This document shows positions 38,978-54,008 of a stretch of DNA of 64,000 bases, piece after piece (position 1 is the first letter of the stretch; every line of letters starts with the position of its first letter). The position numbers and the translations under genes are program-made. Source of the stretch: Clostridiales bacterium. GTDB lineage: Bacteria > Bacillota > Clostridia > Oscillospirales > CAG-272. Where the stretch lies: NCBI GenBank assembly GCA_012522015.1, contig JAAYLD010000044.1, positions 3,829 through 67,828 of the forward strand, read 5' to 3'. The notes below the pieces were generated by a model that saw only the letters and a list, made by a program, of their open reading frames with translations, had not been told where the DNA came from and did no database searches.

Positions 38978-39445
38978 TCATCCTTCACGCGAAACCGACA
39001 CAACAAGATTCGCCGGGACCATCCGGACTATCATATCTTTTATAATTTCAAACTCCTCATCAGATCCCGCCGATATCACAACCGACAGCGAAGAAGCCGC
39101 GGCATTGACGTCAAGCGTAAAATTCTCCTCGCCACACAGTTCAGCAAGTCGATGACGCAACATACTTTCTGTATACGGCATACCGAAGCGTCCCTTTGCC
39201 GCTAATCGCAGGCGTCTTACGGCGTCTGTGTCTGTAGGTTTTGACGTAACACCGAGGACATCTTCATGACGGGCGAGCCAGCGCTCCTCTGCGTATTTAG
39301 TGAATGGAGCGTCACACATCGCAGCAATATCATCGTAAGCGCGTCTGATGGCGTTGTCGATAACATATGCTAAAGCGCGAAATTCGCGTACATTTGAAAA
39401 AAGCTGAGGCAGATAATCAAGATAATCCTTTTGTTTTATATTCAT
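38978..39445 (-). CDS. XkdU/YmfQ-like baseplate-associated protein (DUF2313-like)
   Basis: 155 aa, immediately after and 4 nt overlapping the baseplate J gene, as in PBSX-type modules. The N-terminus KDYLDYLPQLF resembles this family. Confidence 0.5.
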   Translation of the reverse strand: MNIKQKDYLDYLPQLFSNVREFRALAYVIDNAIRRAYDDIAAMCDAPFTKYAEERWLARHEDVLGVTSKPTDTDAVRRLRLAAKGRFGMPYTESMLRHRLAELCGEENFTLDVNAAASSLSVVISAGSDEEFEIIKDMIVRMVPANLVVSVSREG

Positions 39446-40533
39446 ATAATAGTCACGCTCTCGAAGACTGGCACGATGTTGCTATCAAGCGTTATGCTTG
39501 ATGACACATATGACCCAGATGCGCTGTCATAAATAGTTGTACCGGATACACCTGTAACACATTCCGTCGATAGAATAGCGCTTTCAATGTCTGCTATGTG
39601 TATTATACAGTTATCTACAAAAGCCCACTTAGTGGCGAGCGCATTTACATATTTATCGACGGCTGATCTTATTAACTTGGAAGCTGTTAACTGGTTCCAG
39701 CCGGGAGCATATGTAACGCTTGTCTTGACGATAACGCTGTAACTATCGACTGCCTCGACCGTAACAGAATGGCCAATGGGTGCAACGCCAGAGCCAAGCC
39801 CTGTTTTATCAGCGGGGTCAAGGATATTCTTAATTGATTTAATAAGAGATGTTACGGGCACGCCGTAATCACTTGCTTGAACGACAATTTTTACCGTTCC
39901 GCCACCTGCATGAGCGGGGAAAACCTTGACTCCACCGACGCCGTCTATTTCCGATACATATTCAATATAATCAGCGGCATTACCTCCAAAGGGGACGCCT
40001 GATGCCGCACGCAACACACGTACACGGAACGCTTCTGTACTTTCTTCATCTTGTCCGGGAGAGATGATTCCGCCTGCGCTTGAGTATTTAAGGCCCTCAA
40101 TATATGATACCGGGCTCAAAGTACCATGCGAAAAAGCGTTTGGTTCAGAACCGGGTGTATCACATATTACCTCATATTCTATTACGTGACTACTATCTGA
40201 AATAAACTTACCTAATGTGTAAACATAGTCACGTAGGGTGAACTTACTTCCTTCTGGTAAATATGAATCAAATCTTCCCCTTAAAACTGTGCGCGTTGCC
40301 TCCTTTGGTCTTATGCCATATTCAGCACCGTGCCGGATTAAATACTCGCGTGATGCTGTATCGGAGAACATTTCGGATGCCACTTTAGAACATGCCTTAT
40401 AAAGCTTATCAAGCTCTGCGGCTACCGGTACGACTGCGTCATAGAAAATAGACCCCACGCTTGTGTCTATTCCATCGGGCGCTGCCGAAAGCATGTCAGA
40501 TAAAATTGCGTCAAACGTTTTTCCCTCAAACAT
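39442..40533 (-). CDS. Baseplate J-like protein (XkdT-like)
   Basis: FEGKTFDAILSDMLSAAPDGIDTSVGSIFYDAVVPVAAEL and TASREYLIRHGAEYGIRPKEAT follow the baseplate J pattern. ATG at 40533 with a GAGGG RBS. Confidence 0.7.
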   Translation of the reverse strand: MFEGKTFDAILSDMLSAAPDGIDTSVGSIFYDAVVPVAAELDKLYKACSKVASEMFSDTASREYLIRHGAEYGIRPKEATRTVLRGRFDSYLPEGSKFTLRDYVYTLGKFISDSSHVIEYEVICDTPGSEPNAFSHGTLSPVSYIEGLKYSSAGGIISPGQDEESTEAFRVRVLRAASGVPFGGNAADYIEYVSEIDGVGGVKVFPAHAGGGTVKIVVQASDYGVPVTSLIKSIKNILDPADKTGLGSGVAPIGHSVTVEAVDSYSVIVKTSVTYAPGWNQLTASKLIRSAVDKYVNALATKWAFVDNCIIHIADIESAILSTECVTGVSGTTIYDSASGSYVSSSITLDSNIVPVFESVTII

Positions 40534-40547
40534 ATAATCACCAGCCC

Positions 40548-40901
40548 TCAGTAACAAATATCGACGTACACAACAGCCAGAGCCTTACCACTATATCTTT
40601 CGTTTTTAAAAACAGCTGATTTGAAAGCTTCTCCGTATCGCATAAAAAGAGCATCTTTTATCCTCTCGGAGAGCTCAACGGCAGCATAATGATAATCCCG
40701 ACCTATAAGATCACGGCGATCCACACCAAAAAAGCCGCTATATATATCGCTGTATATGCTTCGTTCGGTGGAGACAAGTAAAAATAAATCCTGGCGAACA
40801 GCGTCTTTCCCCTCGACAAACCCGTTTATCGAATAACCGCAGCCGTCTTTATGGAGTGCATATGTTTTAGACGATGAGTACTTACCATAAAATTTTGACA
40901 T
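40548..40901 (-). CDS. XkdS-like small baseplate protein (DUF2634 / gp25-W-like position)
   Basis: 117 aa, in the position between the XkdR-like and baseplate J genes. Confidence 0.45.
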   Translation of the reverse strand: MSKFYGKYSSSKTYALHKDGCGYSINGFVEGKDAVRQDLFLLVSTERSIYSDIYSGFFGVDRRDLIGRDYHYAAVELSERIKDALFMRYGEAFKSAVFKNERYSGKALAVVYVDICY

Positions 40902-40910
40902 AACGCCCCC

Positions 40911-41201
40911 TTATTTAATGATGTCAATAATGGCATAGCATTGTCCGCCCTCAGCTCTAACCATCATGACATAGCTGCCTTTAGCAAGCTCGGATGAGAC
41001 AGTTCCGGTATACGATGTCCCGCCAATGTTCACATTAAATGTTCGGCTGTAAATCGATGCGGGTGTTATCAGCGCCGAGCCGGTGAGCGTAACATTATTA
41101 TCAATCTTCACAGATAGTGGAGATGTCGATGTTACGACACCACATATAATGTCAGCGGTGACACCGCCATCATGAGCAGTCCCCGCATACTTAATACTCA
41201 T
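40911..41201 (-). CDS. XkdR-like protein (DUF2577; spike/plug position)
   Basis: 96 aa. GVVTSTSPLSVKIDNNVTL and the C-terminus GSYVMMVRAEGGQCYAIIDII match the XkdR-type pattern. Confidence 0.55.
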   Translation of the reverse strand: MSIKYAGTAHDGGVTADIICGVVTSTSPLSVKIDNNVTLTGSALITPASIYSRTFNVNIGGTSYTGTVSSELAKGSYVMMVRAEGGQCYAIIDIIK

Positions 41202-41243
41202 GCTTTAGAACCTCGTTTTATTCAATATAGTTAGTTTTATTTA

Positions 41244-42164
41244 TCAGAGCGCCGAAAGATTAAGCTTCATCGTATAAGAGCTACCAAAAATGTGTTCGGC
41301 GCGCTCACAAAAATAATCAGCAGCTCCATCGCCAAAATCAGCGGTCACAACAGCGCCGGCCCGAGCCGTCAGGTCACCTTTAGTGCATGTGCAAACAATG
41401 CTCCGTTTAGGCGTTGACAGTGAATTGAGAAGGTTAATAGCAACAGATGTTCCATTTTCCTGCGGGCTTAATCTCCCATAATATTGAAGCACACCGTCCC
41501 GGGCGATACGCTCCATATCTTCACGAATGAAAAAATGCCTGCCGGTCCCGCTTGTCTGAACAAGCTTAACTTTGTTGTAATAGTTCTTATCTATGGAAAC
41601 GGTAATTGAAAAATCAGTACATACAGATGGTGTCATGACTGTGCCACAGCGAAGAGACGTCATGCGTTTAAGGCAAAGCCTGCCACAATCATCGTAGTAA
41701 ACAAACTCACCAAAACCGGCGCCGGAGGTAAGTGTCAATGCGTAATCAATAATTTTGTAAAGCGAGACGCCATCCTCAAGACGCGCCGCAATGCGGTATT
41801 TAGTATCTTCGATTTCACCTGTGGTAAAGCCATATTGCTTGGCGATCCTTAGCAGAAGCTTGGATGCCGTCATTCCAACGTATTCAACAGTATCTTTATT
41901 TTCAAAATACCGCAGCATGTCATATGCCGTGTATTTGTAGAGCTTTTCATGCCCGTATTCATATTTAAATACAACACCTTTAAATACGTCGGTACCTCCA
42001 TAACGGAATGTAACGTTCTCACCCGTTTTAATATGCTCGTCAGCGGTAAAATAAAGCGTGCCGGCACTGCCCTGTTCCGTTACAAATCGAACATTATCGT
42101 GCGGTGTGATAACACCTGACGGGAGGATAATCTCGCCACGTGTGTTTGTGACCGACATAATCAT
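41244..42164 (-). CDS. XkdQ-like baseplate hub protein (late-control-D-like)
   Basis: 306 aa. GENVTFRYGGTDVFKGVVF, YDMLRYF, TASKLLLRIAKQYGF, VYYDDCGRLCL and SIDKNYYNKVKL follow the XkdQ family pattern. Confidence 0.6.
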   Translation of the reverse strand: MIMSVTNTRGEIILPSGVITPHDNVRFVTEQGSAGTLYFTADEHIKTGENVTFRYGGTDVFKGVVFKYEYGHEKLYKYTAYDMLRYFENKDTVEYVGMTASKLLLRIAKQYGFTTGEIEDTKYRIAARLEDGVSLYKIIDYALTLTSGAGFGEFVYYDDCGRLCLKRMTSLRCGTVMTPSVCTDFSITVSIDKNYYNKVKLVQTSGTGRHFFIREDMERIARDGVLQYYGRLSPQENGTSVAINLLNSLSTPKRSIVCTCTKGDLTARAGAVVTADFGDGAADYFCERAEHIFGSSYTMKLNLSAL

Positions 42165-42577
42165 AATATCTCCGCCCCGCCGGGATAACGCTTGAGCTTC
42201 AGCGCTGCCGTGACGCTGCCATCATTGTTACGCTTGAGTGTGGCGCGCTTTAATGTCGCATTGAAGCTATATGAATCGAAAAGTGAACCATCATCTCCTG
42301 CCGCTATTGCGATTACACGGAACGGCCACTGGGAAAGCGATGTAAGCTCGTCATAAAACTCACCCGGACGTATAAATCCACCCTCCCATGTAGCAAATTC
42401 CGTGTTGGTCGCAGGAAAATCAAGCGAAAACTCGATTTCATCTGGCGCCGGCGGCGAAAAAATGGCTCTGTCATAACCATCGGCAAGCCTTGCAATAGTA
42501 GTGCAGTCGCCACGAGTTATAACAGTCTCGTCCGGAAAAATGGGCATAAGACGACCGTTGATAAAAAGCTTATACAT
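42161..42577 (-). CDS. XkdP-like (LysM-less) protein; alternatively a divergent tail tube
   Basis: 138 aa. MYKLFINGRLMPIFP at the N-terminus, PFRVIAI in the middle, and a C-terminus LKLKRY, as in the protein that normally follows the tape measure in PBSX-type tails. It does not resemble XkdM tube proteins. Confidence 0.4.
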   Translation of the reverse strand: MYKLFINGRLMPIFPDETVITRGDCTTIARLADGYDRAIFSPPAPDEIEFSLDFPATNTEFATWEGGFIRPGEFYDELTSLSQWPFRVIAIAAGDDGSLFDSYSFNATLKRATLKRNNDGSVTAALKLKRYPGGAEIL

Positions 42578-42612
42578 AAGACGTAACCCCCGATTTTGTG
42601 ATGGCGCGCCGG

Positions 42613-43881
42613 TTAAGCCATAAAAATTGTTATACTGACGTCATATGGGCGCAAAAGTGGCGATACGGCGAGCGAAGCGGTGATAGCGCCTTCCCCGTCT
42701 GTTGTCACATCGGCGGAAATAGTATCACTTCGTACCGCACCGTACTTATGTGATAGCAGAGAAAGAAACGATCTTATCTCATCCGCAAGTGTAGAGCACC
42801 CCGCTGCGTCATCATAGACAACATCTGCATATTTATCATTAAAAATCGTGCGTATATTTGAAACTATATAATCATACAGGCGAATACAGGAGTTGTCGGA
42901 GAGCATACAATCAGATTTTGAAGCCGATGTGTTTATATCACGAAAGATACGAGGGTATAATTCAGCCTTTTTGTGATTTTGATAAACAATCTGCCCCTCC
43001 TCCGCAAGCTGGGAGCACTCTTCATCAGAAAAATCAGCCATTATACCGAAGCTTCCGGCATAACTTTTACCCGCAAGCGTTTCCCACGGATATGAGCTGG
43101 CGCAAAGTCCGGCTGTATAGTAAACAACCCCGCCGCCACCGTATGAATCTTCATTATAAACAGACGTTACAAAAGCGCTGCCATCTCCAAAATAGCGAAA
43201 AAGTACGCATTTTACACATCTCCCCGCCTCTCTCTCACGCCGAACAGCTGAAATACAAGCATCAGCATGGGCAGGTGCGCCATCAGCACACGCTAAGATA
43301 TCAATATTTATTGGATGAGCAAGAAGAGCTTCAATACCGGTGGCAAAATCAAATTCGTCAGGCGTTGCATCGGCACCTCCCGTCAAGGGAAGCCCCGCCG
43401 TCTCAAAAATCACAGCGTCGCGATTGAATATAACAAAAGCATTGTCTTTCAGCTCGGCAGCACTGATGACGACCTGACTGTCAACAGCTTCACTGCAAAG
43501 ATATGTAACAACACGGTATGAACCGTCATCCTGTAAATAAACAACAAGCCTGATTGAATTCCCTCTCGCACCGGGATAACGGGCTTGTCCGAAAGAGCAC
43601 GATGCAACAGAACCACCAGATGGGCGAAAAACAGCTACGGATGATGCGTTTGCAAGAACATCACGTATGCCGTCAAGTGATGGGTCGTCTATGTCGCACG
43701 CGAAAGCTTCTTTAATATATCGCCCCGGTATGAAGCTGCTGCGGGAATAAAGAGAAACCTCGCCGGGTGCGCCCCAGCCAGCATTATATACAATACCGAC
43801 AGTACCGCGCCCACCACCGGGTGGCACAGCGCCGCACCCGTTATAAGCGGTGACACCGCTTGACGCATATATATTTTTCAC
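42613..43881 (-). CDS. Contractile tail sheath protein (XkdK-like)
   Basis: ARYPGARGNSIRLVV (compare PBSX AKYPGARGNRISVTV) and LPLTGGADATP (compare LTGGNDGT). 422 aa. Confidence 0.75.
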   Translation of the reverse strand: MKNIYASSGVTAYNGCGAVPPGGGRGTVGIVYNAGWGAPGEVSLYSRSSFIPGRYIKEAFACDIDDPSLDGIRDVLANASSVAVFRPSGGSVASCSFGQARYPGARGNSIRLVVYLQDDGSYRVVTYLCSEAVDSQVVISAAELKDNAFVIFNRDAVIFETAGLPLTGGADATPDEFDFATGIEALLAHPINIDILACADGAPAHADACISAVRREREAGRCVKCVLFRYFGDGSAFVTSVYNEDSYGGGGVVYYTAGLCASSYPWETLAGKSYAGSFGIMADFSDEECSQLAEEGQIVYQNHKKAELYPRIFRDINTSASKSDCMLSDNSCIRLYDYIVSNIRTIFNDKYADVVYDDAAGCSTLADEIRSFLSLLSHKYGAVRSDTISADVTTDGEGAITASLAVSPLLRPYDVSITIFMA

Positions 43882-43929
43882 AGCCCTATCCCCTCCGCCG
43901 TTATATTCGTATATAAAACAAAGAAAAAC

Positions 43930-44337
43930 TTAAATAAATGAAACATTAATTTCTATTGACTTCATAGGCACGCTTCCGTATGCCGGCGGCGGGATTGTAG
44001 CAGCCATCTCACCGGAATAAACGACCGTAAGCTCCGAATACCTATCATATGCCTTACATTCGTAACTTTCGGCGACGACCTTATCATCCCCCGGTGATAG
44101 CTCCCTTACCGCGTTGAGAAGAGCTGAGCCGTCATGAACTGCCGACGGTGCTCCGGCGGTGAAATACCGAATTTTAACGGCAACCTTAGGGTCACCTCCG
44201 GAAGAATAAAAGCGGTCTACAGTAAAGAATAAGGAGGGAGCTGTGGCGTCAGCAGGAGGGCGCCCTACCGTGATGGCGACGCCGGGGAACGAAGCCCCGA
44301 GCGCCGCGCCAACAGCCGATGCAAAAATATCGGTCAT
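43930..44337 (-). CDS. Head-tail joining / tail completion protein (family uncertain)
   Basis: 135 aa, positioned between the connector and the sheath. Confidence 0.35.
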   Translation of the reverse strand: MTDIFASAVGAALGASFPGVAITVGRPPADATAPSLFFTVDRFYSSGGDPKVAVKIRYFTAGAPSAVHDGSALLNAVRELSPGDDKVVAESYECKAYDRYSELTVVYSGEMAATIPPPAYGSVPMKSIEINVSFI

Positions 44338-44452
44338 AGTTTTAAGCCTCTTTTAAAAAATAGAGTATTGCAGCAACAAATAAAACATAGAAGTCAGTTA
44401 TTTAGCTTGTAGAAGGCCATTTGTGAACATCTACAACACATACCTTCATTAC

Positions 44453-44836
44453 CTACCAGACAAGCCTGCGTTTTGCCCCCGCTACTGATAAGCCGCGTTC
44501 TCTCATCTTTTTTAGCTCCGCACGAAGACGCTCCGCGCTGCTTGTTCCCTTTGTATATGACACCGACAAAGAACCGTCGCGCCTGGAAGAGACCTCCGCT
44601 CCGTCCGTGCCGTCACGAGCCATGACGGTGAGCGCAAAATCAGCACAGACAATGTCGGCAGCCGCGTCCATTAACTCAGATGGAAGGGTGTCGTAACCCG
44701 TTATTGTGCAAAGCTCCGAAACAGCAGCTTTTGTGACAAACGACAAAAGCTCCGTGTCCTCGGGTTTTACCGTAAGACCTATTGCCGCAAGACGAGACGA
44801 TGCCCCTTCGGCAATACTATCGAAAATGTTAATCAT
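44453..44836 (-). CDS. gp6-like head-tail connector (DNA packaging) protein
   Basis: 127 aa immediately after the capsid gene. LLSFVTKAAVSELCTITGYD is a pattern typical of gp6-like connectors. Confidence 0.55.
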   Translation of the reverse strand: MINIFDSIAEGASSRLAAIGLTVKPEDTELLSFVTKAAVSELCTITGYDTLPSELMDAAADIVCADFALTVMARDGTDGAEVSSRRDGSLSVSYTKGTSSAERLRAELKKMRERGLSVAGAKRRLVW

Positions 44837-44846
44837 CGCATCAATC

Positions 44847-45926
44847 TTAACAACCTAATGAGATTATTCTTGCAATCGGAATAAGCGACACATCGATAGG
44901 ATTTTCCTCGGAGTCAAAAACAAGCTCCCAGTTGGCGGGGTTTGCGAGGTCAGTATCCTCAGGCGACAGCGAAGCCTGCTCCTTTTTGATGTAATCAAAG
45001 CCAAACGGATGAATGACCTTGCGCTGGCGAGAATAAAGAATGTCGGATCCTCCGTTGCTGCTCGGGTCGCGATACATCTCATACGGCACCTTTGCACCGA
45101 TATTCTCATAGAAGAAAGCGCCTTCTCCAAGAATATATGAGGTGTATATGGTTCCCTTATCCAGCACCGTTTTAGTAGGAAGCGCGTCACTGACAATGAC
45201 GGAGCGTCCGTTCCATGATCCGATTGAAAGATCACGTGTGATACCCTTTGAGTCTACGTATGTCATATAATTTAAAAGCTGAAGGTTTTCAAGGTTCGTC
45301 GCGATAACAGAGTGGAGGAGAGCAACCGTAAACTTACCCTTATTAGCCCCGCATGCCTTCTGAATCGCAGTATTAAGCGTCGTTGCGCCAACAAGGGCGG
45401 CCTCGCCTGTCTTATCGCTTATATCAAGCGTGTGAGTATCGATGAAATTACTTTTCGCCACACGTTTGTTGTCGTCACCCTCTTCCTCACCGTCATCAAG
45501 CTCGCGAAGCGAAAAGATACCGCCTAAAATGGCAATGAGCGTAGCTTCATCGACTGTTTCCCAGTATTCGGCGATTTGACGGGCGACAATGTCCATATAA
45601 TCATCGCCTGTCAGGTCAGCGGTAAAATCACGCTCCGTCCATGCTTTTGCCCGCCCAATGACGTTCGCACCAAACTCATATGAAGGCGTATTTACCGGTA
45701 TAATGTCAGTTATACCGTCGTAGTTTTGCGCAGCTCCCGTAATAGCACCGTAAAGCGGAATTTTTGCGTATGCTGCATTAGCGGCACCTCGGAATATGGA
45801 ACGAATCTCCGGATTCCCGATAAACGCGCGGCGTGCTTTCAACTCGTCAATTTTGATGCTCGGTACACGTGCAACAAAAGAGCCAAATGCTTCAGAGTCA
45901 AACTTTTTATAGTCAAAGTTTGCCAT
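44847..45926 (-). CDS. Major capsid protein
   Basis: 359 aa, following a GP20-type scaffold gene. Size and position fit. I recall no diagnostic motif. Confidence 0.6.
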   Translation of the reverse strand: MANFDYKKFDSEAFGSFVARVPSIKIDELKARRAFIGNPEIRSIFRGAANAAYAKIPLYGAITGAAQNYDGITDIIPVNTPSYEFGANVIGRAKAWTERDFTADLTGDDYMDIVARQIAEYWETVDEATLIAILGGIFSLRELDDGEEEGDDNKRVAKSNFIDTHTLDISDKTGEAALVGATTLNTAIQKACGANKGKFTVALLHSVIATNLENLQLLNYMTYVDSKGITRDLSIGSWNGRSVIVSDALPTKTVLDKGTIYTSYILGEGAFFYENIGAKVPYEMYRDPSSNGGSDILYSRQRKVIHPFGFDYIKKEQASLSPEDTDLANPANWELVFDSEENPIDVSLIPIARIISLGC

Positions 45927-45986
45927 TTAAAAGTCCTCCAATTTTATTTTAAATAGGTATTCAAGCTCGTTATAAAAATAAAAACA

Positions 45987-46469
45987 TCAGCTTTTGCCAT
46001 AAAGGCGCAAATATTCGCTGTATGTCAGGTCAGATGCCATAAAATCGTCATCCGATTCCTCAGCAGGTGCAATTCCGACAAAAGATAGAGCCTTACGCCC
46101 GCTGTAAGCATAATCAGAGCCGAAAAGATACGGCTCCGCTTCCGCAAGAGAGCGAACAGCCTCGGTAAGGCCCGCCGGCGTGCCCTCAAAGTCGCCGCCA
46201 TCATATGTATAATTGAGTACAGCTTTCGCCGCTTTAATGTTGCGCGCACCTGCTTTTGAAAGCTCCCGCTCAATAGCGAAATTGAGCTTCTGCTCTAAAA
46301 GCGCACGCTGCGCTTTCTCAGAAGATGCCCGTAGCTTTTCTTCAAATTCCGCCTTTATGAGCGATGTTGCCTCGTCAACCGCAGCTTTTGTAGAGCGCTC
46401 TACCTCAGCTAAGATTGCATCAGCCACATCGTCGCCAATACCGAGTGGCATGAGAAAACTTTTGTCCAT
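45987..46469 (-). CDS. Scaffolding protein (phage GP20-like)
   Basis: 160 aa, coiled-coil and Ala/Glu/Lys-rich, between the portal and capsid genes. N-terminus FLMPLGIGDDVADAILAE. Confidence 0.65.
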   Translation of the reverse strand: MDKSFLMPLGIGDDVADAILAEVERSTKAAVDEATSLIKAEFEEKLRASSEKAQRALLEQKLNFAIERELSKAGARNIKAAKAVLNYTYDGGDFEGTPAGLTEAVRSLAEAEPYLFGSDYAYSGRKALSFVGIAPAEESDDDFMASDLTYSEYLRLYGKS

Positions 46470-46502
46470 ATAAAACCTCCCCTGACATCTCGTATGCCTT
46501 CG

Positions 46503-47864
46503 TTAATTTAATTCAAGCCGCGCAAGCTCGCCTTCGATATCGTCGACATACGGATGCTGCGCGATGAGAGTTCGTCGAGATAAAATACCCTCCGAATTTT
46601 TAAGCGAATTTATAATTTCAGACTCGTTTATAAGAAGATCGCGGTTTAGCACAACCTTTGCAGCAACCCCTCTGAAATCGCCCGCCCCGGTATAGTATAA
46701 ATAAGAACGAATGTAACCAAACCACGACTCGAAAGCGCACTGAAGCTCCGATTCAAAGCCATTTGCGTCAAGGTCGATGTCCGAATAAATCGCAAGAACA
46801 TTCATTTGATTCGGATTGTTTGAAAGACGTCCGTCGTGAGAGTCAAAACCCCGGCAGCACTCCGTCAGTGCCTGCATTAACATTTTCTTTAGCGCTTCGT
46901 AATTTTCAGCCTTTACCTCAACAGCCAAGCTTTCGACGCCGCCATCGCCTCCGGCGTCAGAGCGCACCTTGACAGCTCCATACGCCGCAAGATTGCGGCG
47001 AAATTCACCAAGGTCCTCACCATCGTAATTTTTTAACACAAGAACTGTACTCCGGCTGTTCTCCTGCATGTTGTCAGCAAAATCAGACACCAAAATATCA
47101 AGAGCATCCTGCAAGTTCTTTGCCCGCCTGATAAGCGGAACCTCGCTGCTGTTATATTTAACGGGGATTATCGGGACTCTGTCCCAGAGATAGCCCTTAC
47201 CATTGCTGTCACAAAAATGATACCCGACTCGTGAAACAGGGCGCAGCCGCCCATTTGAATATGCGTACTCCTCAATCCCGCTTTTTGTATAAACAAAAAC
47301 GCTCTCTTCAACCGAACGGCGTCGGTTGCTGTAAACCTCACGTGTACACAGCCGTATAAAAGCATCAAGCCGCGTGTGAGCAGCATCGCTCCAAAGCGGC
47401 AGACACATTGTCGGATCAAATCGCCGCAGAGTAAGCATTCCACTCTTGTCTATATAAGGATGAAGCCATGCAACGCCACAGTTGACAGCGTCAGTTGCCG
47501 TATCCCGCCATATTTTTTTTGCTGTATGCTCGAAAAAACTGGCAAGAAGAGATGCAAAACGCTTATTATCACAATCAATTGAAAACGGTTTACCAAGCGA
47601 ATAATTTATCTTTTGATCGACAAGCCGCGCATATTGCCCGACAGCTATTCTGCTGCAAGCGACGTTATCAAGCACCTCAGGCTTGCCATCAGCGCCAATA
47701 GCCGTTTTATGGCGGCGCAGCACATCGTGTTCTCCTGCATAATAACGCTTAGCCGTTATCATCTCCTCTCGGCGACGGGAGGAAAGGAATCGCGCCAGCT
47801 CCGCTTCAATCATGTCAAGATAACAGCCCCGCCCGCCATTCACTCTCATTTCTTTTATCATCAT
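46503..47864 (-). CDS. Portal protein (SPP1 gp6-like)
   Basis: About 453 aa. AKRYYAGEHDVL near the N-terminus is characteristic. ATG at 47864 lies 8 nt after AGGAG. Confidence 0.75.
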   Translation of the reverse strand: MMIKEMRVNGGRGCYLDMIEAELARFLSSRRREEMITAKRYYAGEHDVLRRHKTAIGADGKPEVLDNVACSRIAVGQYARLVDQKINYSLGKPFSIDCDNKRFASLLASFFEHTAKKIWRDTATDAVNCGVAWLHPYIDKSGMLTLRRFDPTMCLPLWSDAAHTRLDAFIRLCTREVYSNRRRSVEESVFVYTKSGIEEYAYSNGRLRPVSRVGYHFCDSNGKGYLWDRVPIIPVKYNSSEVPLIRRAKNLQDALDILVSDFADNMQENSRSTVLVLKNYDGEDLGEFRRNLAAYGAVKVRSDAGGDGGVESLAVEVKAENYEALKKMLMQALTECCRGFDSHDGRLSNNPNQMNVLAIYSDIDLDANGFESELQCAFESWFGYIRSYLYYTGAGDFRGVAAKVVLNRDLLINESEIINSLKNSEGILSRRTLIAQHPYVDDIEGELARLELN

Positions 47865-48052
47865 CAAAAAAACTCCTGACCGTGTTATCGTCTGTATCAA
47901 CACAAAACAAAAACACTGCGCATAACATTAAGCAGCCTATATAAAAAAGCCTAATCAAACCCTGACAACACTTGAATTGTAACACTGAAAAAAAGTAAAT
48001 ATCGTCCAGATTTTCCCGCTGCAGTCACAACAGTATAACGGAACAAATAGTT

Positions 48053-49297
48053 TTAAAAGCTGAAAACAGCACCCGCCGCTGCATCCTCAACTGCATATCT
48101 CATTGCATCCATCAAATGATCGCACTTGCCAACCGGACGGTTGACAGCCTTCCCTGATGCATCCGTTGCCCAGACATAACTACGTATTTCTTCGGCGAAA
48201 GCGCGGCAGCACGGATGAATGATAATTTTATTTCGTCTGACAAGATCTATACCTGAAAGAAGACTGTCCCGTCCCTTTCGCGACGGAACAATCCGGTAAA
48301 GCCCAAGCTCACGCAGCTCAGATATCGACTTTGGCTCCGCAGCGTCGGCACAAATCCGCTCCTTTTTATATCCCCGCTCAATTATGAGGCGTGCGAGCCG
48401 ATCGTTTGTCAGCGAACGCTCGTATATCTCGTCGAATACATATATTTCACGTGTGGCAGGGTCAAAAATACCGCAGAAAAGAGCGCTCGGATCGTTCGTA
48501 TAACCAAAATCAAGCCCGAATATCGCCTTTGTACCGGGACGCCGAAGAATATCGGTGGGCGAAAACTCCCTTATCTCGTAGTTTTCATAAACAAGACCGC
48601 TCTCGTGCCCCCACTCGCCAAGCCCGGCAACGCGATAACGAGCCGGACGCTCCTTTTTCATTGTCTCGAACATTCGCCGGTCAGCCTCGTCAAGAAATTC
48701 GTTGCACATATAGTTTTTCGTAACAGCAAGAATATCGGGCGACGGAGGTGCGTCAAAGAACCGGCGCTTTAACCAGTGATTTTCATTCCACGGATTAAAC
48801 GTCAGCGTGATTTGCTTAAAATAACCATCAGGCACAGAACCGCGTATAAGCTCATCGAGTGTGTTAAAATCATCTTCATTCGTTATCTCAAACGCTTCCT
48901 CAATCCAAAGCCAACATAAAGCGCCGTACTCGACAGCAATTGACGTCAGCTTCATCGGATCGTCAAGCCCTTTGAAGATAATTTTTTGCCCTGTCCGCCG
49001 TCGCGTTATCTCAAGCGGAGAGGTGCGAAACTCAAACTCCCTCTCGACGCCAAGGCGACGCGCCGCCCATTTCAACTCCGTGTAACAGGAACGCTCAAGC
49101 GACGCGTAAGTCCTTCGCACAACGAGCAGATTGGCAAGCGGATACTTCCGCAGCCCGTTAATATACCAGAGAGCCGCCGTCTTTGACTTTTTCGATGCGC
49201 GTGAGCCTTTGACAACACGGTACCGCCCGCGAAAACGCCAAAAGTCAGCATATCCGCCCCCTACCGCTTGCGAAATATCAACCTTACGCCAAAGCAT
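48053..49297 (-). CDS. Terminase large subunit (PBSX XtmB-like)
   Basis: N-terminal ATPase with VKGSRASKKSKT (Walker A-like) and a C-terminal nuclease. It overlaps the small subunit gene by 14 nt. Confidence 0.8.
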   Translation of the reverse strand: MLWRKVDISQAVGGGYADFWRFRGRYRVVKGSRASKKSKTAALWYINGLRKYPLANLLVVRRTYASLERSCYTELKWAARRLGVEREFEFRTSPLEITRRRTGQKIIFKGLDDPMKLTSIAVEYGALCWLWIEEAFEITNEDDFNTLDELIRGSVPDGYFKQITLTFNPWNENHWLKRRFFDAPPSPDILAVTKNYMCNEFLDEADRRMFETMKKERPARYRVAGLGEWGHESGLVYENYEIREFSPTDILRRPGTKAIFGLDFGYTNDPSALFCGIFDPATREIYVFDEIYERSLTNDRLARLIIERGYKKERICADAAEPKSISELRELGLYRIVPSRKGRDSLLSGIDLVRRNKIIIHPCCRAFAEEIRSYVWATDASGKAVNRPVGKCDHLMDAMRYAVEDAAAGAVFSF

Positions 49298-49766
49298 CGT
49301 TACCCGCGCTCGTATTATCCTCCTCGTCAAAGAGGAGCTTCTCCTCACCGACGATTACAGTTTGCCTCATACCGCCGTCGCCATTGAAAATGCCATAACG
49401 ACGGGCTAACATTTCTGCCGCTGACATCCGCTCTTTTACCGACGCGCTTTTCTCGATTACACGAGCAGCACGCTCGGTTTTACCGGATGCACCTGTAAGC
49501 TGCTCAACAACGACAACAGGCTCGCGCACACATCCTCGCATGACAGACGTCAGCATCCGAAGAACCTCATCACACCCTGCAATACCTGAATCATTGTCAA
49601 AATCATAATCCGACAAGCCAAGCTCTTCCCTGACAGCTTTGCTTTTGAGAAGAGAAGCCCGACTTCCGGCTTTGTAACCGGCAAGGCGCGCCGCTTCGTT
49701 TACATTCTTGCAGCTTCTATAATATTCACAAAACTTCCTTTGTTTTTCAGTCAACTTCCTTTTCAT
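49284..49766 (-). CDS. Terminase small subunit (P27/Terminase_4-like)
   Basis: MKRKLTEKQRKFCEYYRSCKNVNEAARLAGYK is the canonical HTH N-terminus of this family. Confidence 0.75.
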   Translation of the reverse strand: MKRKLTEKQRKFCEYYRSCKNVNEAARLAGYKAGSRASLLKSKAVREELGLSDYDFDNDSGIAGCDEVLRMLTSVMRGCVREPVVVVEQLTGASGKTERAARVIEKSASVKERMSAAEMLARRYGIFNGDGGMRQTVIVGEEKLLFDEEDNTSAGNDALA

Positions 49767-49922
49767 ATACAAACCGCTCTGCGTTATTTTTATTGAGGTG
49801 TATAGTACCTCCTACCGAAGCAAATATTACCACGCCAAAGCGGTAAAAACCGTCATCCTGTAATCGACCTTTCATGCGCTTGCGCCATCATAAAACATAG
49901 CTTTTAAAAACGCACCTTTCCC

Positions 49923-50345
49923 TTATAGCTGCCCGTTTAGCTTCATGTATCTTTCACATCGCTTACGGGCGTATTGCTCGTCATACTCGCCGAGAGCAAA
50001 TGCTGTTTGCTGCCAGGTCTTCCCGTATAAAAACCGATGTTTCATCGCTGACCGTATAAAAGGTATATCGATCGCTTCAATATAGTGTTCAATTCTTTCA
50101 TACTTTGAGAGAAGCTCGTCCATCCGAGTCTTTATACTTGTCTCAAGCTTTGATATTCTCACATCAAAGTCAACAGTATCAGACTCCGAATATTCTTTTT
50201 CTTTGAGTGCTGCAGCCGCTTCACGAAGCGCTGCAAGCTCGCGAAGCTGCGAGCGCAGAAGCTGGAGTTCGTATTTTATGTGACGGTACTGCGAAAGCTC
50301 GTTTTTGATATTATATGTTGTCCTTTTTTCGCTAATACGACTCAC
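49923..50345 (-). CDS. Phage late-gene activator, sigma-70 region 4 / ArpU / DUF1492-like
   Basis: 140 aa. N-terminal coiled coil. C-terminal RSAMKHRFLYGKTWQQTAFALGEYDEQYARKRCERYMK is HTH-like. GTG start overlaps the upstream ORF by 14 nt. Confidence 0.55.
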   Translation of the reverse strand: MSRISEKRTTYNIKNELSQYRHIKYELQLLRSQLRELAALREAAAALKEKEYSESDTVDFDVRISKLETSIKTRMDELLSKYERIEHYIEAIDIPFIRSAMKHRFLYGKTWQQTAFALGEYDEQYARKRCERYMKLNGQL

Positions 50346-50649
50346 CAGCCTTCATAATTTTGTCTGTAATCTCAGAAAGCGCTTCGGAGACTGAGCCAAG
50401 TCCGCATATATCAAGAAATTCCGCCATCGAAAGCTTTTCAATGCACATCTCGCATATTATCTGCCCGACACCGTGACGCAGCCCGTATATGTACGTATCG
50501 TCAGGGTAAATACAGCTTCCGCACGAGCCACATACAAGCTCGCTTCCGCACCCTGAATCACAGAAGTATTCATCTGCGCATCCTGCGTCGCCAGCATTGA
50601 GCGGGCATCCTTCCATATGACTAAACCCATAACCGCAAACGTCACACAT
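50332..50649 (-). CDS. Cys-rich (multi-CxxC) small protein, first gene of the phage-like cluster
   Basis: ATG at 50649 follows a GGGGG RBS. The 105-aa product has 17 Cys, including CDVCG, CGSCGSC and CEMC. Confidence 0.5.
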   Translation of the reverse strand: MCDVCGYGFSHMEGCPLNAGDAGCADEYFCDSGCGSELVCGSCGSCIYPDDTYIYGLRHGVGQIICEMCIEKLSMAEFLDICGLGSVSEALSEITDKIMKAGESY

Positions 50650-50659
50650 GGCTAACCCC

Positions 50660-50673
50660 CAAACAAATGTTCG
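50660..50673 (-). promoter_or_regulatory. LexA (Cheo) box 1 in the leader of the phage-like cluster
   Basis: Minus strand CGAACATTTGTTTG fits GAAC-N4-GTTY and abuts the RBS of the first gene. Confidence 0.55.
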
Positions 50674-50689
50674 TTTTATGTGAGAAATA

Positions 50690-50715
50690 AAACGCGCCAA
50701 AATAAAAGCGCGTTT
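50690..50715 (-). promoter_or_regulatory. Leader hairpin (terminator-like) between the promoter and the first phage-like gene
   Basis: Minus strand AAACGCGC-loop-GCGCGTTTTATTT, starting about 8 nt after the predicted transcription start. Confidence 0.45.
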
Positions 50716-50729
50716 ATTTTATGTGCCTA

Positions 50730-50758
50730 ATTATACCATAAAATTTAGATATTGTCAA
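50730..50758 (-). promoter_or_regulatory. Consensus extended -10 sigma-A promoter of the phage-like cluster
   Basis: Minus strand TTGACA-17 nt-TATAAT with TGg immediately upstream of the -10. Confidence 0.75.
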
Positions 50759-50766
50759 TATAAAAC

Positions 50767-50780
50767 AGAACAAATGTTCG
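50767..50780 (-). promoter_or_regulatory. LexA (Cheo) box 2, 8 nt upstream of the -35
   Basis: Minus strand CGAACATTTGTTCT has a perfect GAAC-N4-GTTC core. It shares the 12-mer CGAACATTTGTT with box 1. Confidence 0.6.
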
Positions 50781-50865
50781 TATTTTTCGTACTCCGTTAT
50801 TTTGTATTATTTAATATAAAATAAGAAAAATAATAAGCTGAAAAGACATACTTCACACTTAATGC

Positions 50866-50894
50866 TTGACAAATAGAGTTCACATAATTATAAT
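50866..50894 (+). promoter_or_regulatory. Sigma-A promoter for nfo
   Basis: TTGACA-17 nt-TATAAT. This shows the ORF-track start at 50866 is spurious. Confidence 0.7.
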
Positions 50895-50952
50895 AAAAAA
50901 GATCATAGGTTCGCATATTAACAAAAATAACCATAAAAGGTTTAAGAATTAT

Positions 50953-51825
50953 ATGAAAGAAAAAGCCGCCGGGCTAATAATCGGAGCACATATGTCAATC
51001 TCGGATGGATATACTGCCATGGTGCGAGATGCAATAAGCATCGGTGCCAATGCGATACAGTATTTCACGAGAAATCCGCGCGGTTACGGGGTGCGCGCAC
51101 TTGATGAAGATGATATTAAAAACGCCTTCAATCTATTATCTGAGAACGGGATACCGTGTAGTCATATAATAGCCCACGCACCCTATACAATGAACCCCTG
51201 CTCGGCAAAGGAAGATGTGCGGCGCTTCACAATTGATATAATGCGCGAGGATATTGAGCGCCTTGAGCATTTCCCGGGAACGCTGTATAATTTCCATCCC
51301 GGTTCACATACAGGACAGGGTGTCGATGTAGGAATCAAACAGACAGCTTTGTGCCTTGCTTCGATAATGACAGCTGAGCAAAAGACAGTTGTCTTAATTG
51401 AGACAATGGCAGGAAAGGGCACCGAAATCGGCCACTCTTTTGAAGAAATAAGAGATATTATCGATGTTGCTGAAGCTGAAAATACATCGATCAAAGGAAA
51501 AATCGGCGTATGTCTTGACACGTGCCACATTAATGATGCCGGTTACGATGTAATAAACGATCTCGATGGCATTCTTGAACGTTTCGACCTTGTCATTGGA
51601 TTAAAACGCCTGCGCGCTGTTCACCTAAATGACAGTAAAAATCCGTTTGGCTCTCATAAGGACCGCCATGAAATTATCGGGAATGGCGAAATTGGTATAC
51701 AAGCGATTGAACGCGTAATAAACCACCCACATCTTCGCTCGCTGCCGTTTTGCCTTGAAACACCAAACGATCTCGCTGGATATGCCGCTGAAATTGCCCT
51801 TTTACGCACTCTTTATAAAAACTGA
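50953..51825 (+). CDS. nfo: Deoxyribonuclease IV (endonuclease IV, AP endonuclease family 2)
   Basis: GAHMSISDGY, IAHAPYTMNPCS, YNFHPGSH, VLIETMAGKG, VCLDTCHINDAGYD, HLNDSKNPFGSHKDRHE and PFCLETP. Confidence 0.9.
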   Translation: MKEKAAGLIIGAHMSISDGYTAMVRDAISIGANAIQYFTRNPRGYGVRALDEDDIKNAFNLLSENGIPCSHIIAHAPYTMNPCSAKEDVRRFTIDIMREDIERLEHFPGTLYNFHPGSHTGQGVDVGIKQTALCLASIMTAEQKTVVLIETMAGKGTEIGHSFEEIRDIIDVAEAENTSIKGKIGVCLDTCHINDAGYDVINDLDGILERFDLVIGLKRLRAVHLNDSKNPFGSHKDRHEIIGNGEIGIQAIERVINHPHLRSLPFCLETPNDLAGYAAEIALLRTLYKN

Positions 51826-52809: not shown

Positions 52810-54008
52810 TTAAAGAGAAAACTCTTTGTCGTAGATAACAGTGAAGTTACCGCACTTTTTAAACCAATCAACATTTTCTGTGTGTACGGGAATAATATAT
52901 CTTGGCTTTACATCACTGATTAATGCCCTTATCGTTTCTTCGTCAGCATGTCCGCTTATATGTAAATCAACGATACGAACGCCTTTGTCTTGCATGAACT
53001 GAAGAAACTTTGCAACATCTTCCTTCTCTTTATATCCATTCCACATTGAGTAGAACAGAATACCGCCATTAAACGATATTTCTTCCGATAGCTTTTCCAG
53101 AGAACTTTCATAGACGGGCGAACACACATGACAAAGCGCTGTTTCGCGATACCCGCCCTTCCTATTTTTGATTTTTTGTATTTGCTATCCAGAAGTTCAT
53201 ACCGTTCATTACAACCGTTTGTGATAAAAACGCGCACACCGGAAAAAGTCACAGGATTGGGAATGTTTTCTCCGGCTGCAGAGGCAACCTCAGCCATATA
53301 CAAATCCTGTAATAAAACGCGGTTGCTTCTGCGCGCTGCCTTGAATATGGTAACAATGCGATCAATATTAGTGGCAGCTTGTAGAATGAATACAGGTGCG
53401 CTAATTTGAGAGATTTCCTCATATGCTAATTGCTCTAAATCCGTTTCTGTTTTAGGAGGAACAGGGGCTCTCGAAAGTGTCGTTCCCTCTATAATTAACA
53501 CGTCCGCTTGAGGTAGCCTATGAAGTAAATGCGAAAAGCTCTTCCTACCATTTGAACGAAAATCCCCGGAATAAATCAGTGCTTTATCACCGCAAGCTAT
53601 ATGAAACATATACGCATCAAATGCAGAATGGTAACATTGATATGGCGTAATTTGAAAATCTCCGATGGAAATTGTTTTTCCCGACTCATAATGGGCGGTA
53701 AAATGATATTCTGGTTTATTCAAATATCTTTTAGCTGCATTAGTCACATCCGCCGCCCTTTTCCCAATATAAATCGGGATTTCGGGCAATACTTGATCAC
53801 ATAAACCTAAATGATCGCCATGATAGTGAGAGATGAACACGGCATCATAAGACGCTTGTCCGAAAAACAAGCCTTCTATTTGCGGCGCAACAGGGATTTC
53901 TTCGTCCAATTCTGATCCAGCATCAAGTATGATTTTTGTTGTCTTGGAAGCGATTTCAATGATTGAGCCGCCTATTTGATTTTGTCCACGGTGAATAATG
54001 ATGTTCAT
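52810..54008 (-). pseudogene. MBL-fold metallo-hydrolase interrupted by a frameshift in a homopolymer tract
   Basis: The N-terminal frame (54008 to about 53170) carries HYHGDHLG. The C-terminal frame (open from about 53192 to 52810) carries LHISGHAD and IPVHTE. The frames overlap around the T5 and T6 runs at 53165-53177 (plus strand). Confidence 0.7.

What the first reader, a model, noticed from the sequence alone, without database searches (positions are those of the whole stretch)
50650..50790. Control region of the phage-like cluster: consensus extended -10 promoter bracketed by two near-identical LexA boxes plus a leader hairpin
On the minus strand the sequence reads, in order, as follows. 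CGAACATTTGTTCT (box 2, perfect GAAC-N4-GTTC). Then 8 nt. Then TTGACA-17 nt-(TGg)TATAAT. Then a leader with AAACGCGC-loop-GCGCGTTTTATTT. Then CGAACATTTGTTTG (box 1), GGGGG RBS and ATG. The two boxes share a 12-mer and lie about 107 nt apart, on either side of an otherwise constitutive-strength promoter. No phage repressor gene is present. Host LexA would therefore directly gate the element, giving SOS-wired expression. The GC stem plus U-tract right after the start site could add attenuation or stabilise the mRNA 5' end.
Basis: partly seen in the sequence, partly recalled or inferred. Interest (0 to 1): 0.66.

Follow-up and report, generated by a model that had tools for sequence, protein, structure and literature searches.

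The report
SOS-gated switch of a domesticated phage cluster
Two conserved binding sites for the bacterial DNA-damage repressor LexA bracket a strong promoter and a leader hairpin in front of a small, vertically inherited phage-like gene cluster, so the host's SOS response most likely switches the cluster on directly; this is a neat variant of a known theme.

Summary
On the minus strand these are box 2, a 12/12 sigma-70 promoter with a TG extension, a GC hairpin with a T-tract, box 1, a ribosome-binding site and an ATG.

Within this window alone the boxes are only weakly above chance. The strong evidence is comparative. The same module was found in 13 related loci from at least three clades. 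Their intergenic DNA is only 48-59% identical between clades.

- In every instance box 2 ends 9-10 nt upstream of the -35.
- TGnTATAAT is invariant.
- Box 1 starts 54-61 nt after the -10.
- The two boxes lie 105-111 nt apart.
- Box 2, the extended -10 and box 1 are the best-conserved 12-nt blocks.
- The hairpin is kept through compensatory changes.

The cluster has PBSX-type head and contractile-tail genes. It lacks a tape measure, tail fibres, lysis genes, an integrase and a repressor. It sits in the same chromosomal place in most relatives and is under purifying selection.

Direct gating by host LexA is the best explanation, but LexA binding was not tested. Neither box overlaps the core promoter (centres about -50 and +63). 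That geometry is unusual and suggests a roadblock or a loop. I class it as a new variant of a known kind.

The parts
50767..50780 (-). Box 2: upstream LexA-type operator CGAACATTTGTTCT (perfect GAAC-N4-GTTC), centred about -50 from the predicted start
   Evidence: A perfect box stands at the same place, 9-10 nt upstream of the -35, in all 13 related loci that carry the module. It is the best-conserved 12-column block of the alignment, 0.93 against 0.60 for the background.
50753..50758 (-). -35 hexamer TTGACA
   Evidence: It varies among relatives: TTGACA, TTGATT, TTGAAT, TGGATT and TGGAAA.
50730..50738 (-). Extended -10, TGGTATAAT, 17-nt spacer
   Evidence: 12 of 12 with TG. TGnTATAAT is invariant in all 14 instances.
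50685..50719 (-). Leader hairpin. The GC core lies at 50690-50715 and is followed by the T-tract TTTTATTT. The extended stem starts about 5 nt after the predicted start site (about 50724).
   Evidence: terminator-like. (-18.5 kcal/mol, z -3.4). (15 consensus pairs, 5 with compensatory change). (91.7% of cells paired, against 36-67% when the partners are slid). No Rfam family matches.
50660..50673 (-). Box 1: downstream LexA-type operator CGAACATTTGTTTG (GAAC-N4-GTTT), centred about +63, ending 11 nt before the start codon
   Evidence: It is present in all 14 instances and also in L019, which lacks box 2. It is the same GTTT half-site class as the C. difficile lexA and recA operators (PMC4234289).
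50656..50660 (-). Ribosome-binding site GGGGG (GGAGG or GGTGGTG in relatives)
50332..50649 (-). First gene: a 105-aa cysteine-rich protein (CxxC...H...C...CxxC...CxxC), function unknown
   Evidence: invariant Cys and His. (dN/dS 0.10). There are only 8 clusters in 1.84 billion representative proteins. No Pfam, PHROG or NCBIfam hit.
49923..50345 (-). Second gene: a 140-aa putative transcription regulator. It overlaps the first gene by 14 nt.
   Evidence: PHROG 36, 'transcriptional regulator', E 3e-8. The L015 orthologue gives a sub-threshold sigma-70/ECF hit, E 0.008. The C-terminus is conserved. The gene is absent from L014, L016, L017, L018 and L019.
38978..49772 (-). Structural genes: small and large terminase, SPP1-type portal, scaffold, major capsid protein, adaptor, an unknown gene, sheath, putative tube, and homologues of XkdQ/YqbQ, XkdR, XkdS, XkdT (baseplate J) and XkdU. 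There is no tape measure, fibre, lysis gene or integrase.
   Evidence: The same gene order holds in relatives. dN/dS is 0.04-0.15.
50866..50912 (+). Divergent nfo promoter (TTGACA-17-TATAAT, 50866-50894) with a degenerate third box, GATCATAGGTTC, at 50901-50912 on its start site. The nfo coding sequence probably starts at 50953.
   Evidence: The box is a perfect GAACACAGGTTC in L011 and L012.

Best explanation
This is the SOS-controlled on-switch of a chromosomally fixed, PBSX-like phage-derived cluster.

In undamaged cells, host LexA dimers occupy two high-affinity operators. The operators flank, rather than overlap, a strong sigma-A promoter with an extended -10. Box 2 is centred near -50 and abuts the -35. 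There it would hinder polymerase recruitment. Box 1 is centred near +63 and starts 20-22 nt after the GC stem of a leader hairpin. There it would act as a roadblock.

Given how far RNA polymerase reaches downstream, LexA on box 1 would hold a polymerase with its active centre in or just before the T-tract of the hairpin. Transcripts that escape the promoter would then be terminated.

DNA damage activates RecA, LexA cleaves itself and both locks open. The transcript then begins with a long stem-loop a few nucleotides from its 5' end. That stem-loop probably also protects the mRNA. The first products are a small zinc-finger-like protein and, in some lineages, a PHROG-36 regulator. The packaging, head and tail genes follow.

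Shown here: the sequence features, their conservation and geometry, and the absence of an element-encoded repressor.

Inferred: LexA binding, damage induction, the start site, the roadblock effect and the role of the hairpin.
For: - The features are present as described.
- The module is conserved in 13 further loci from at least three clades: box 2, 9-10 nt, -35, 17 nt, TGnTATAAT, 54-61 nt, box 1, with a core-to-core distance of 105-111 nt.
- Intergenic identity between clades is only 48-59%. Box 2, the extended -10 and box 1 are nevertheless the three best-conserved 12-column blocks, at 0.93, 0.925 and 0.90 against 0.60 for the rest.
- Between the window and L011 the control region is 91% identical, although synonymous divergence in the adjacent genes is 0.36-0.73.
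- The hairpin is kept by compensatory changes. Its GC stem ends 20-22 nt before box 1 in 11 loci (read).
- The motif is the Firmicute LexA operator. Purified C. difficile LexA binds GAAC-N4-GTTT/C, and the lexA (AGGAACAAATGTTTGC) and recA (GAGAACAAATGTTTGT) operators dissociate most slowly (PMC4234289).
- There is a precedent for a phage run by host LexA without a CI repressor, with boxes downstream of the start site: GIL01 (PMC4551915).
- No S24, LexA-like or HTH repressor gene lies in the window or the close relatives.
- The element genes are under purifying selection and co-diverge with the flanking host genes.
Against: - No binding, transcription or start-site data exist for this uncultured lineage.
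- I could not retrieve its lexA, recA or uvrB promoters to build an organism-specific motif.
- Within the window alone the motif count is at chance level.
- Neither operator overlaps the -35, the -10 or the start site. That is not the classical LexA arrangement, so the strength of repression is uncertain.
- L014 and L017 keep 5' hairpins but have no T-tract, so termination cannot be the universal role of the hairpin.
- L019 keeps only box 1.
- The 105-111 nt spacing spans about half a helical turn, so strict phasing is not shown.
- It is unresolved whether one transcript covers the whole cluster or a second promoter precedes the small terminase gene.
Confidence: 0.7

Rival explanations
1. The palindromes are operators for a regulator other than host LexA. 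One candidate is the element's own cysteine-rich protein or its PHROG-36 regulator, acting in autoregulation.
For: The cysteine-rich protein is found only with this module and has no assigned function. In a more distant group of terminase-linked clusters, a similar box lies next to a divergent CI-like repressor with HTH_3 and Peptidase_S24 domains. So GAAC-N4-GTTC boxes near phage genes need not be served by LexA alone.
Against: The sequence is exactly the Firmicute LexA consensus, including the flanking C and G (PMC4234289, PMC4551915). The same motif sits on the start site of the DNA-repair gene nfo in L011 and L012. It also occurs in the distant group, where no homologue of the window's cysteine-rich protein or regulator was found. 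The regulator gene is missing from five loci that keep both boxes.
Confidence: 0.1
2. Only one box is a working operator for the cluster. Box 2 serves the divergent nfo gene, or is a relic, and box 1 alone controls the element.
For: Box 1 is the more widely kept site, since L019 has box 1 only. Box 2 lies between two divergent promoters. nfo is a repair gene and a plausible SOS target.
Against: Box 2 is always 9-10 nt from the element's -35. It lies 51-56 or 86-90 nt from the nfo -35, too far upstream to occlude that promoter. It is kept in L014 and L017, where the divergent gene is not nfo. nfo has its own start-site box in the window's clade, and L084 carries another box downstream of its divergent promoter. 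Box 2 is the single best-conserved block.
Confidence: 0.1
3. The hairpin is a true attenuator that needs a dedicated antiterminator. LexA only sets initiation, and read-through is decided by an element or host factor.
For: A GC-rich stem with a T-tract stands directly after the start site in 11 of 14 instances. This is reminiscent of the late-promoter and terminator arrangement of lambdoid phages (my knowledge).
Against: No antiterminator-like gene was recognised. L014 and L017 lack the T-tract. Covariation also covers the outer A-U pairs, which a terminator does not need. That fits a 5'-terminal protective stem-loop better.
Confidence: 0.15
4. The boxes are chance palindromes in AT-rich intergenic DNA and have no function.
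For: Motif counts in the window match the shuffled expectation.
Against: Both boxes are conserved at fixed positions in 13 loci whose surrounding DNA is near saturation.
Confidence: 0.02

Closest known systems
Temperate tectivirus GIL01 of Bacillus thuringiensis (P1 promoter, dinBox1 and dinBox1b, co-factor gp7)
   Same: Host LexA, not a CI-type repressor, holds the element silent. The operator is CGAAC-N4-GTTCG. The boxes lie downstream of the start site. Small element-encoded proteins sit next to the switch (PMC4551915, PMC6182141).
   Different: GIL01 is a replicating, lytic phage. Its two boxes are adjacent or overlapping and lie downstream only. Here the two full boxes are 105-111 nt apart and bracket the promoter and a leader hairpin. 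This element has no replication or lysis genes. No gp7 or gp6 homologue was looked for by sequence.
PBSX and skin-type defective prophages of Bacillus subtilis
   Same: The structural gene set and order match: terminase, SPP1-type portal, sheath, then homologues of XkdQ/YqbQ, XkdR, XkdS, XkdT and XkdU. Both are chromosomally fixed. PBSX is induced by DNA damage (my knowledge).
   Different: PBSX is controlled by its own Xre repressor and the sigma-like factor Xpf, and it carries tape-measure, fibre and lysis genes (my knowledge). None of these was found here.
Colicin and other classical SOS promoters with double LexA boxes
   Same: Two LexA operators on one strong promoter give a tight off state (my knowledge).
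   Different: There the boxes are tandem and overlap the -10 and the start site. Here neither box touches the core promoter.
gal operon repression by operators OE and OI of Escherichia coli
   Same: Two operators lie outside the core promoter, one upstream and one downstream, about 110 bp apart (my knowledge: -60.5 and +53.5).
   Different: The gal repressor loops DNA with the help of HU. No LexA-LexA looping is known, and spacing here varies by 6 nt. This is a resemblance in geometry only.
Gene transfer agents, for example RcGTA of Rhodobacter capsulatus
   Same: Both are small, vertically inherited phage-derived clusters under host regulation. LexA influences RcGTA production (literature listed; not read in detail).
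   Different: As far as I recall, the LexA control of RcGTA is indirect. The structural genes are unrelated siphovirus-like ones. DNA packaging by the present cluster is unknown.

Membership tests
Firmicute LexA operator (Cheo/DinR box) | Palindrome GAAC-N4-GTTC (GTTT tolerated), often with flanking C and G | tested here: met
   Box 2 is perfect and box 1 is GAAC-N4-GTTT. These are the same classes as the operators bound by C. difficile LexA (PMC4234289).
Firmicute LexA operator (Cheo/DinR box) | Lies in or next to a promoter so that bound LexA can block transcription | tested here: inconclusive
   The boxes are centred near -50 and +63 from the predicted start. They are adjacent to the core promoter but do not overlap it.
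Firmicute LexA operator (Cheo/DinR box) | Conserved in orthologous loci | tested here: met
   There are 14 instances with fixed geometry, and the boxes are the best-conserved blocks.
Firmicute LexA operator (Cheo/DinR box) | Bound by LexA, and the gene is induced by DNA damage in a RecA- and LexA-dependent way | not testable with these tools
   This needs EMSA or footprinting and expression data.
Firmicute LexA operator (Cheo/DinR box) | The same motif stands in front of lexA, recA and uvrB of the same genome | not tested
   These genes are not in the window.
Sigma-70/sigma-A promoter with extended -10 | TTGACA, 17 nt, TGnTATAAT | tested here: met
   12 of 12 plus TG. TGnTATAAT is invariant in relatives. 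The start site is not mapped.
Intrinsic terminator or leader attenuator | GC-rich stem-loop directly followed by a T-tract | tested here: met
   Met in the window and in 11 of 14 instances. Not met in L014 and L017. Termination itself is not testable here.
LexA-only temperate phage (GIL01 type) | A complete, self-replicating, lytic phage genome | tested here: not met
   No replication, lysis, integrase, tape-measure or fibre genes. So it works like GIL01's switch but is not a member.
LexA-only temperate phage (GIL01 type) | No CI-type repressor, with LexA boxes at the early promoter | tested here: met
PBSX-like defective prophage | Head genes plus Xkd-type contractile-tail genes in PBSX order | tested here: met
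PBSX-like defective prophage | Xre repressor, Xpf sigma factor, tape measure, fibres, holin and endolysin | tested here: not met
   None was detected. The 140-aa regulator gives only a PHROG-36 hit and a sub-threshold ECF-sigma hit.

The most novel reading that the evidence does not exclude
The two LexA operators work together across the promoter rather than independently. They lie outside the core promoter at a conserved distance of 105-111 bp, and the downstream one is always 20-22 nt beyond a leader terminator. One form of joint action is a gal-like repression loop. The loop might be bridged by the element's conserved small zinc-finger protein, acting as a LexA co-factor analogous to GIL01 gp7. 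The other form is LexA-roadblock-assisted intrinsic termination. Either would be a mode of LexA repression not described before, here serving a domesticated contractile particle cluster that lacks a tape measure.
Probability: 0.2. Interest if true: 0.8.

Novelty: new variant of a known kind. Interest (0 to 1): 0.55.

Why it matters
Host LexA acting as the sole repressor of a phage-derived element is known from very few systems, with GIL01 as the model. Here the arrangement is fixed over family-level divergence in uncultured Clostridia. It sits in front of a vertically inherited cluster that has lost everything a phage needs to spread.

That gives a clean natural case of a domesticated particle-making cluster wired straight into the SOS response. 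The operator geometry (-50 and +63, with a terminator in between) cannot work by simple promoter occlusion. It therefore offers a testable model for roadblock or loop repression by LexA.

It also raises the question of what a conserved head plus contractile-tail cluster with no tape measure and no lysis genes does for its host after DNA damage.

Tried and rejected
- The word-index homologue searches found the cysteine-rich protein and the regulator only in the same species. The divergent homologues came to light only through the terminase-anchored loci.
- The metagenome scan with the cysteine-rich protein alignment gave two near-identical loci only.
- The viral-contig scans with that alignment and with the full dual-box DNA pattern gave nothing.
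- tblastn against GenBank phages gave no hit for the cysteine-rich protein and one weak hit for the regulator.
- The AlphaFold model of the cysteine-rich protein was unusable (pLDDT 42).
- The regulator model (pLDDT 75.6) matched only coiled coils in Foldseek. A profile search of PDB sequences gave nothing meaningful. The regulator's family therefore stays at PHROG 36.
- Rfam has no family for the leader.
- There is no tRNA next to the element. I did not search for attachment-site repeats at its ends.
- I first took the single box in the distant terminase group as clean support for LexA control. I withdrew that when a CI-like S24 repressor gene turned up beside it.
- I ran no further search on LexA. 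The LexA of this genome would be unlikely to appear among the listed top hits.
- I looked for the position of the B. subtilis recA Cheo box in the literature as a precedent for an operator upstream of the -35. I did not find it.

Full report
1. OBSERVATION

Reading the minus strand of 50400-51000 gives, in order:
- Box 2, CGAACATTTGTTCT (50780-50767).
- Eight nucleotides.
- TTGACA (50758-50753).
- A 17-nt spacer ending in TGG.
- TATAAT (50735-50730).
- A GC hairpin (core 50715-50690) followed by TATTT.
- Box 1, CGAACATTTGTTTG (50673-50660).
- GGGGG.
- ATG at 50649.

The consensus scan scores the promoter 12 of 12 with the TG extension. It lists the hairpin as terminator-like, with 9 pairs, 5 of them G-C, and an 8-nt loop. 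The predicted leader RNA folds at -18.5 kcal/mol, z = -3.4. The shared 12-mer occurs exactly twice in 64 kb. The description is accurate.

2. CHANCE

Inside the window alone the case is weak. One perfect GAAC-N4-GTTC is found against 0.77 expected. Sites with one mismatch number 18 against 20.4 expected. The only local oddity is that three of the 18 sites lie within 252 bp, between nfo and the cluster. I therefore looked for related sequences.

3. WHAT THE PROMOTER DRIVES

The downstream genes on the minus strand, 50649 to 38978, are as follows:
- A 105-aa cysteine-rich protein with no family.
- A 140-aa protein matching PHROG 36, 'transcriptional regulator'.
- Small and large terminase.
- An SPP1-type portal.
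- Scaffold, major capsid protein and adaptor.
- An unknown gene.
- Tail sheath and a probable tube.
- Homologues of PBSX/skin XkdQ (YqbQ), XkdR, XkdS, XkdT (baseplate J) and XkdU.

There is no tape measure, tail chaperone, LysM protein, fibre, holin, endolysin, integrase or repressor. The flanks are housekeeping genes: nfo, a YpsA-family gene, trkH, trkA and ctsR-mcsA-mcsB-clpC on one side, and a DUF711 gene on the other. A tblastn probe with LexA finds no S24-type repressor anywhere in the window.

4. RELATIVES

A terminase-anchored scan of one genome per species returned 69 loci. The closest ones have terminase 66-93% identical: L012-L018, L020 and L023. L011 came from a homologue look-up. 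L083, L084 and L088 were reached through the cysteine-rich protein. All carry the same control module.

The 14 instances give this table:

| Element | Value |
|---|---|
| Box 2 | perfect GAAC-N4-GTTC |
| Box 2 core to -35 | 9-10 nt |
| -35 hexamer | variable |
| Spacer | 17 nt |
| Extended -10 | TGnTATAAT, invariant |
| -10 to box 1 core | 54-61 nt |
| Box 1 | GAAC-N4-GTTC or GTTT |
| Box 1 to start codon | RBS and ATG follow within about 27 nt |
| Box 2 core to box 1 core | 105-111 nt |

The start codon opens the cysteine-rich protein (MCD[VI]CDY...).

In a 10-sequence alignment, intergenic identity between the three clades is 48-59%. The three best-conserved 12-column blocks are box 2 (0.93), the extended -10 (0.925) and box 1 (0.90), against 0.60 for the remaining columns. 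Between the window and L011 the whole control region is 91% identical, while synonymous divergence in adjacent genes is 0.36-0.73. Both boxes are therefore under selection. L019 keeps box 1 only, behind a longer leader.

5. THE ELEMENT IS DOMESTICATED OR AT LEAST FIXED

In most relatives the cluster lies beside nfo. In L015, as in the window, it ends at the DUF711 gene. The gene order is the same, and the same genes are absent between tube and XkdQ. dN/dS between the window and L011 is 0.04-0.15 for nine element genes. Their dS is close to that of nfo and the YpsA-family gene.

Some lineages have lost the regulator gene: L014, L016, L017, L018 and L019. No tail genes were found downstream of the adaptor in L015 and L016. 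In L014 the divergent neighbour is not nfo.

The cysteine-rich protein family is tiny, with 8 clusters among 1.84 billion representative proteins. It is absent from viral collections.

6. IDENTITY OF THE BOXES

The motif is the LexA operator of Firmicutes. For Clostridia, purified C. difficile LexA binds GAAC-N4-GTTT/C sites. It dissociates most slowly from lexA (AGGAACAAATGTTTGC), recA (GAGAACAAATGTTTGT) and uvrB (PMC4234289). Box 1 belongs to the GTTT class, and both boxes share the A/T-rich spacer.

In L011 and L012 a third, perfect box (GAACACAGGTTC) sits on the start site of the repair gene nfo. The window keeps it with one mismatch. A classical SOS target beside the element thus uses the same motif.

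7. BOX 2 AND nfo

Box 2 is always 9-10 nt from the element's -35. It lies 51-56 nt (clades 2 and 3) or 86-90 nt (the window's clade) upstream of the -35 of the divergent promoter. It is kept where the divergent gene is not nfo. It is therefore unlikely to be an nfo operator.

8. THE HAIRPIN

In clades 1 and 2 the consensus structure has 15 pairs, and 5 of them show compensatory change. 91.7% of cells are paired, against 36-67% when the partners are slid. 0 of 500 shuffles reach the observed covariation score.

The stem includes an A-rich 5' arm that pairs with the T-tract. It begins 2-5 nt from the predicted 5' end. L014 and L017 have two different hairpins at the 5' end and no T-tract. So a stable 5'-proximal stem-loop is the universal feature, and the terminator shape is common (11 of 14) but not universal.

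The GC stem ends 20-22 nt before the box 1 core in 11 loci (read). Rfam has no matching family.

9. MECHANISM

With the start site taken 7 nt after the -10, box 2 covers about -56 to -45 and box 1 about +58 to +69. Neither overlaps the core promoter, which is unusual for LexA. I propose two locks.

- LexA at box 2 abuts the -35 and would hinder polymerase binding and upstream contacts.
- LexA at box 1 is a roadblock. An elongating polymerase covers roughly 15-20 bp ahead of its active centre (established knowledge). It would meet LexA when the active centre is in or just before the terminator's T-tract, which favours release.
- After LexA cleavage the terminator, with its large loop and interrupted T-tract, would leak. 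The hairpin would then remain as a 5' protective stem-loop, as is known for Firmicute mRNAs (my knowledge).

A repression loop between the two LexA dimers is an alternative. The 6-nt range in spacing neither proves nor excludes it.

It is unresolved whether the whole cluster is one transcript or a second promoter precedes the small terminase gene. A short motif, TTGAGGCTGT, recurs there in clade 2, and a weak terminator-like site lies at 49846-49827 in the window.

10. COMPARISON WITH WHAT IS KNOWN

It works like the P1 switch of phage GIL01. There, host LexA is the repressor, the boxes lie downstream of the start, and small phage proteins assist (PMC4551915). It is not a member of that kind, because it is not a phage genome.

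Structurally it is PBSX-like, but it lacks PBSX's Xre/Xpf control, tape measure and lysis genes. The operator geometry recalls gal OE/OI rather than any LexA promoter I know.

A more distant group of terminase-linked clusters (terminase about 52% identical) carries one perfect box just after TTGACA-17-TACAAT. Those loci also encode a divergent CI-like repressor with HTH_3 and S24 domains. I therefore do not count them as clean support.

11. VERDICT

I rate it a new variant of a known kind, with interest 0.55. The most novel reading still open is cooperative action of the two operators, by loop or by roadblock-assisted termination, possibly with the zinc-finger protein as a LexA partner. I give that a probability of about 0.2.

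Noticed in passing
window 38978-49772 (minus strand); also L013, L020, L023: The PBSX-like cluster has head, sheath, tube and baseplate genes. It has no tape measure, tail chaperone, LysM protein, fibre or lysis genes. The same gaps are conserved in relatives, and all tested genes have dN/dS of 0.04-0.15. A contractile tail module without a ruler protein that stays under selection is odd. The missing genes may lie elsewhere in the genome.
   Followed up: partly
window 50866-50912 (+); L011 4904-4917; L012 5417-5430; L084 upstream of its divergent promoter: The endonuclease IV gene nfo has its own consensus promoter. In the window's clade it also has a LexA-type box on the start site, perfect in L011 and L012 and one mismatch (GATC) in the window. 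L084 has a box in the leader of its divergent gene. nfo may have joined the SOS regulon in some lineages and be leaving it in this one.
   Followed up: partly
L052-L058, L060, L062, L063, L065: This is a second, more distant family of small clusters that contain a terminase (about 52% identical). They have TTGACA-17-TACAAT followed after about 10 nt by CGAACAAA[CT]GTTC. At least L054-L057, L060, L062 and L063 also have a divergent CI-like HTH_3 + Peptidase_S24 repressor gene. Several loci show a TTGCA...TGCAA inverted repeat by the -35. This suggests dual control by LexA and an element repressor.
   Followed up: partly
L015 11606-12058; L016 after 11543: In these relatives no tail genes were found. 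In L015 the cluster ends after the head-tail adaptor and runs straight into the DUF711 gene. These are head-only versions of the same element.
   Followed up: no
L083, L084, L088, about 15-35 nt upstream of box 2: A conserved inverted repeat, TCACA-N6/7-TGTGA, lies between the two divergent promoters in these loci. It is possibly a site for another regulator. It is not present in the window.
   Followed up: no
window 52810-54059 (minus strand): The metallo-beta-lactamase-fold gene appears as two overlapping reading frames, 52956-54059 and 52810-53127. The second frame corresponds to genes in L002 and L005 that carry the RMMBL domain. This is a possible frameshift or a natural split.
   Followed up: no
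window 49773-49922 (minus strand); L013, L015, L016, L018, L020, L023 between the regulator or cysteine-rich gene and the small terminase gene: A short motif, TTGAGGCTGT, recurs upstream of the small terminase gene in clade 2, followed in L015, L016 and L018 by GGGGGTGATAnCnTATAAAT. It persists even in L016 and L018, where the regulator gene is lost. It is a possible second promoter. The window has a weak terminator-like site at 49846-49827.
   Followed up: partly
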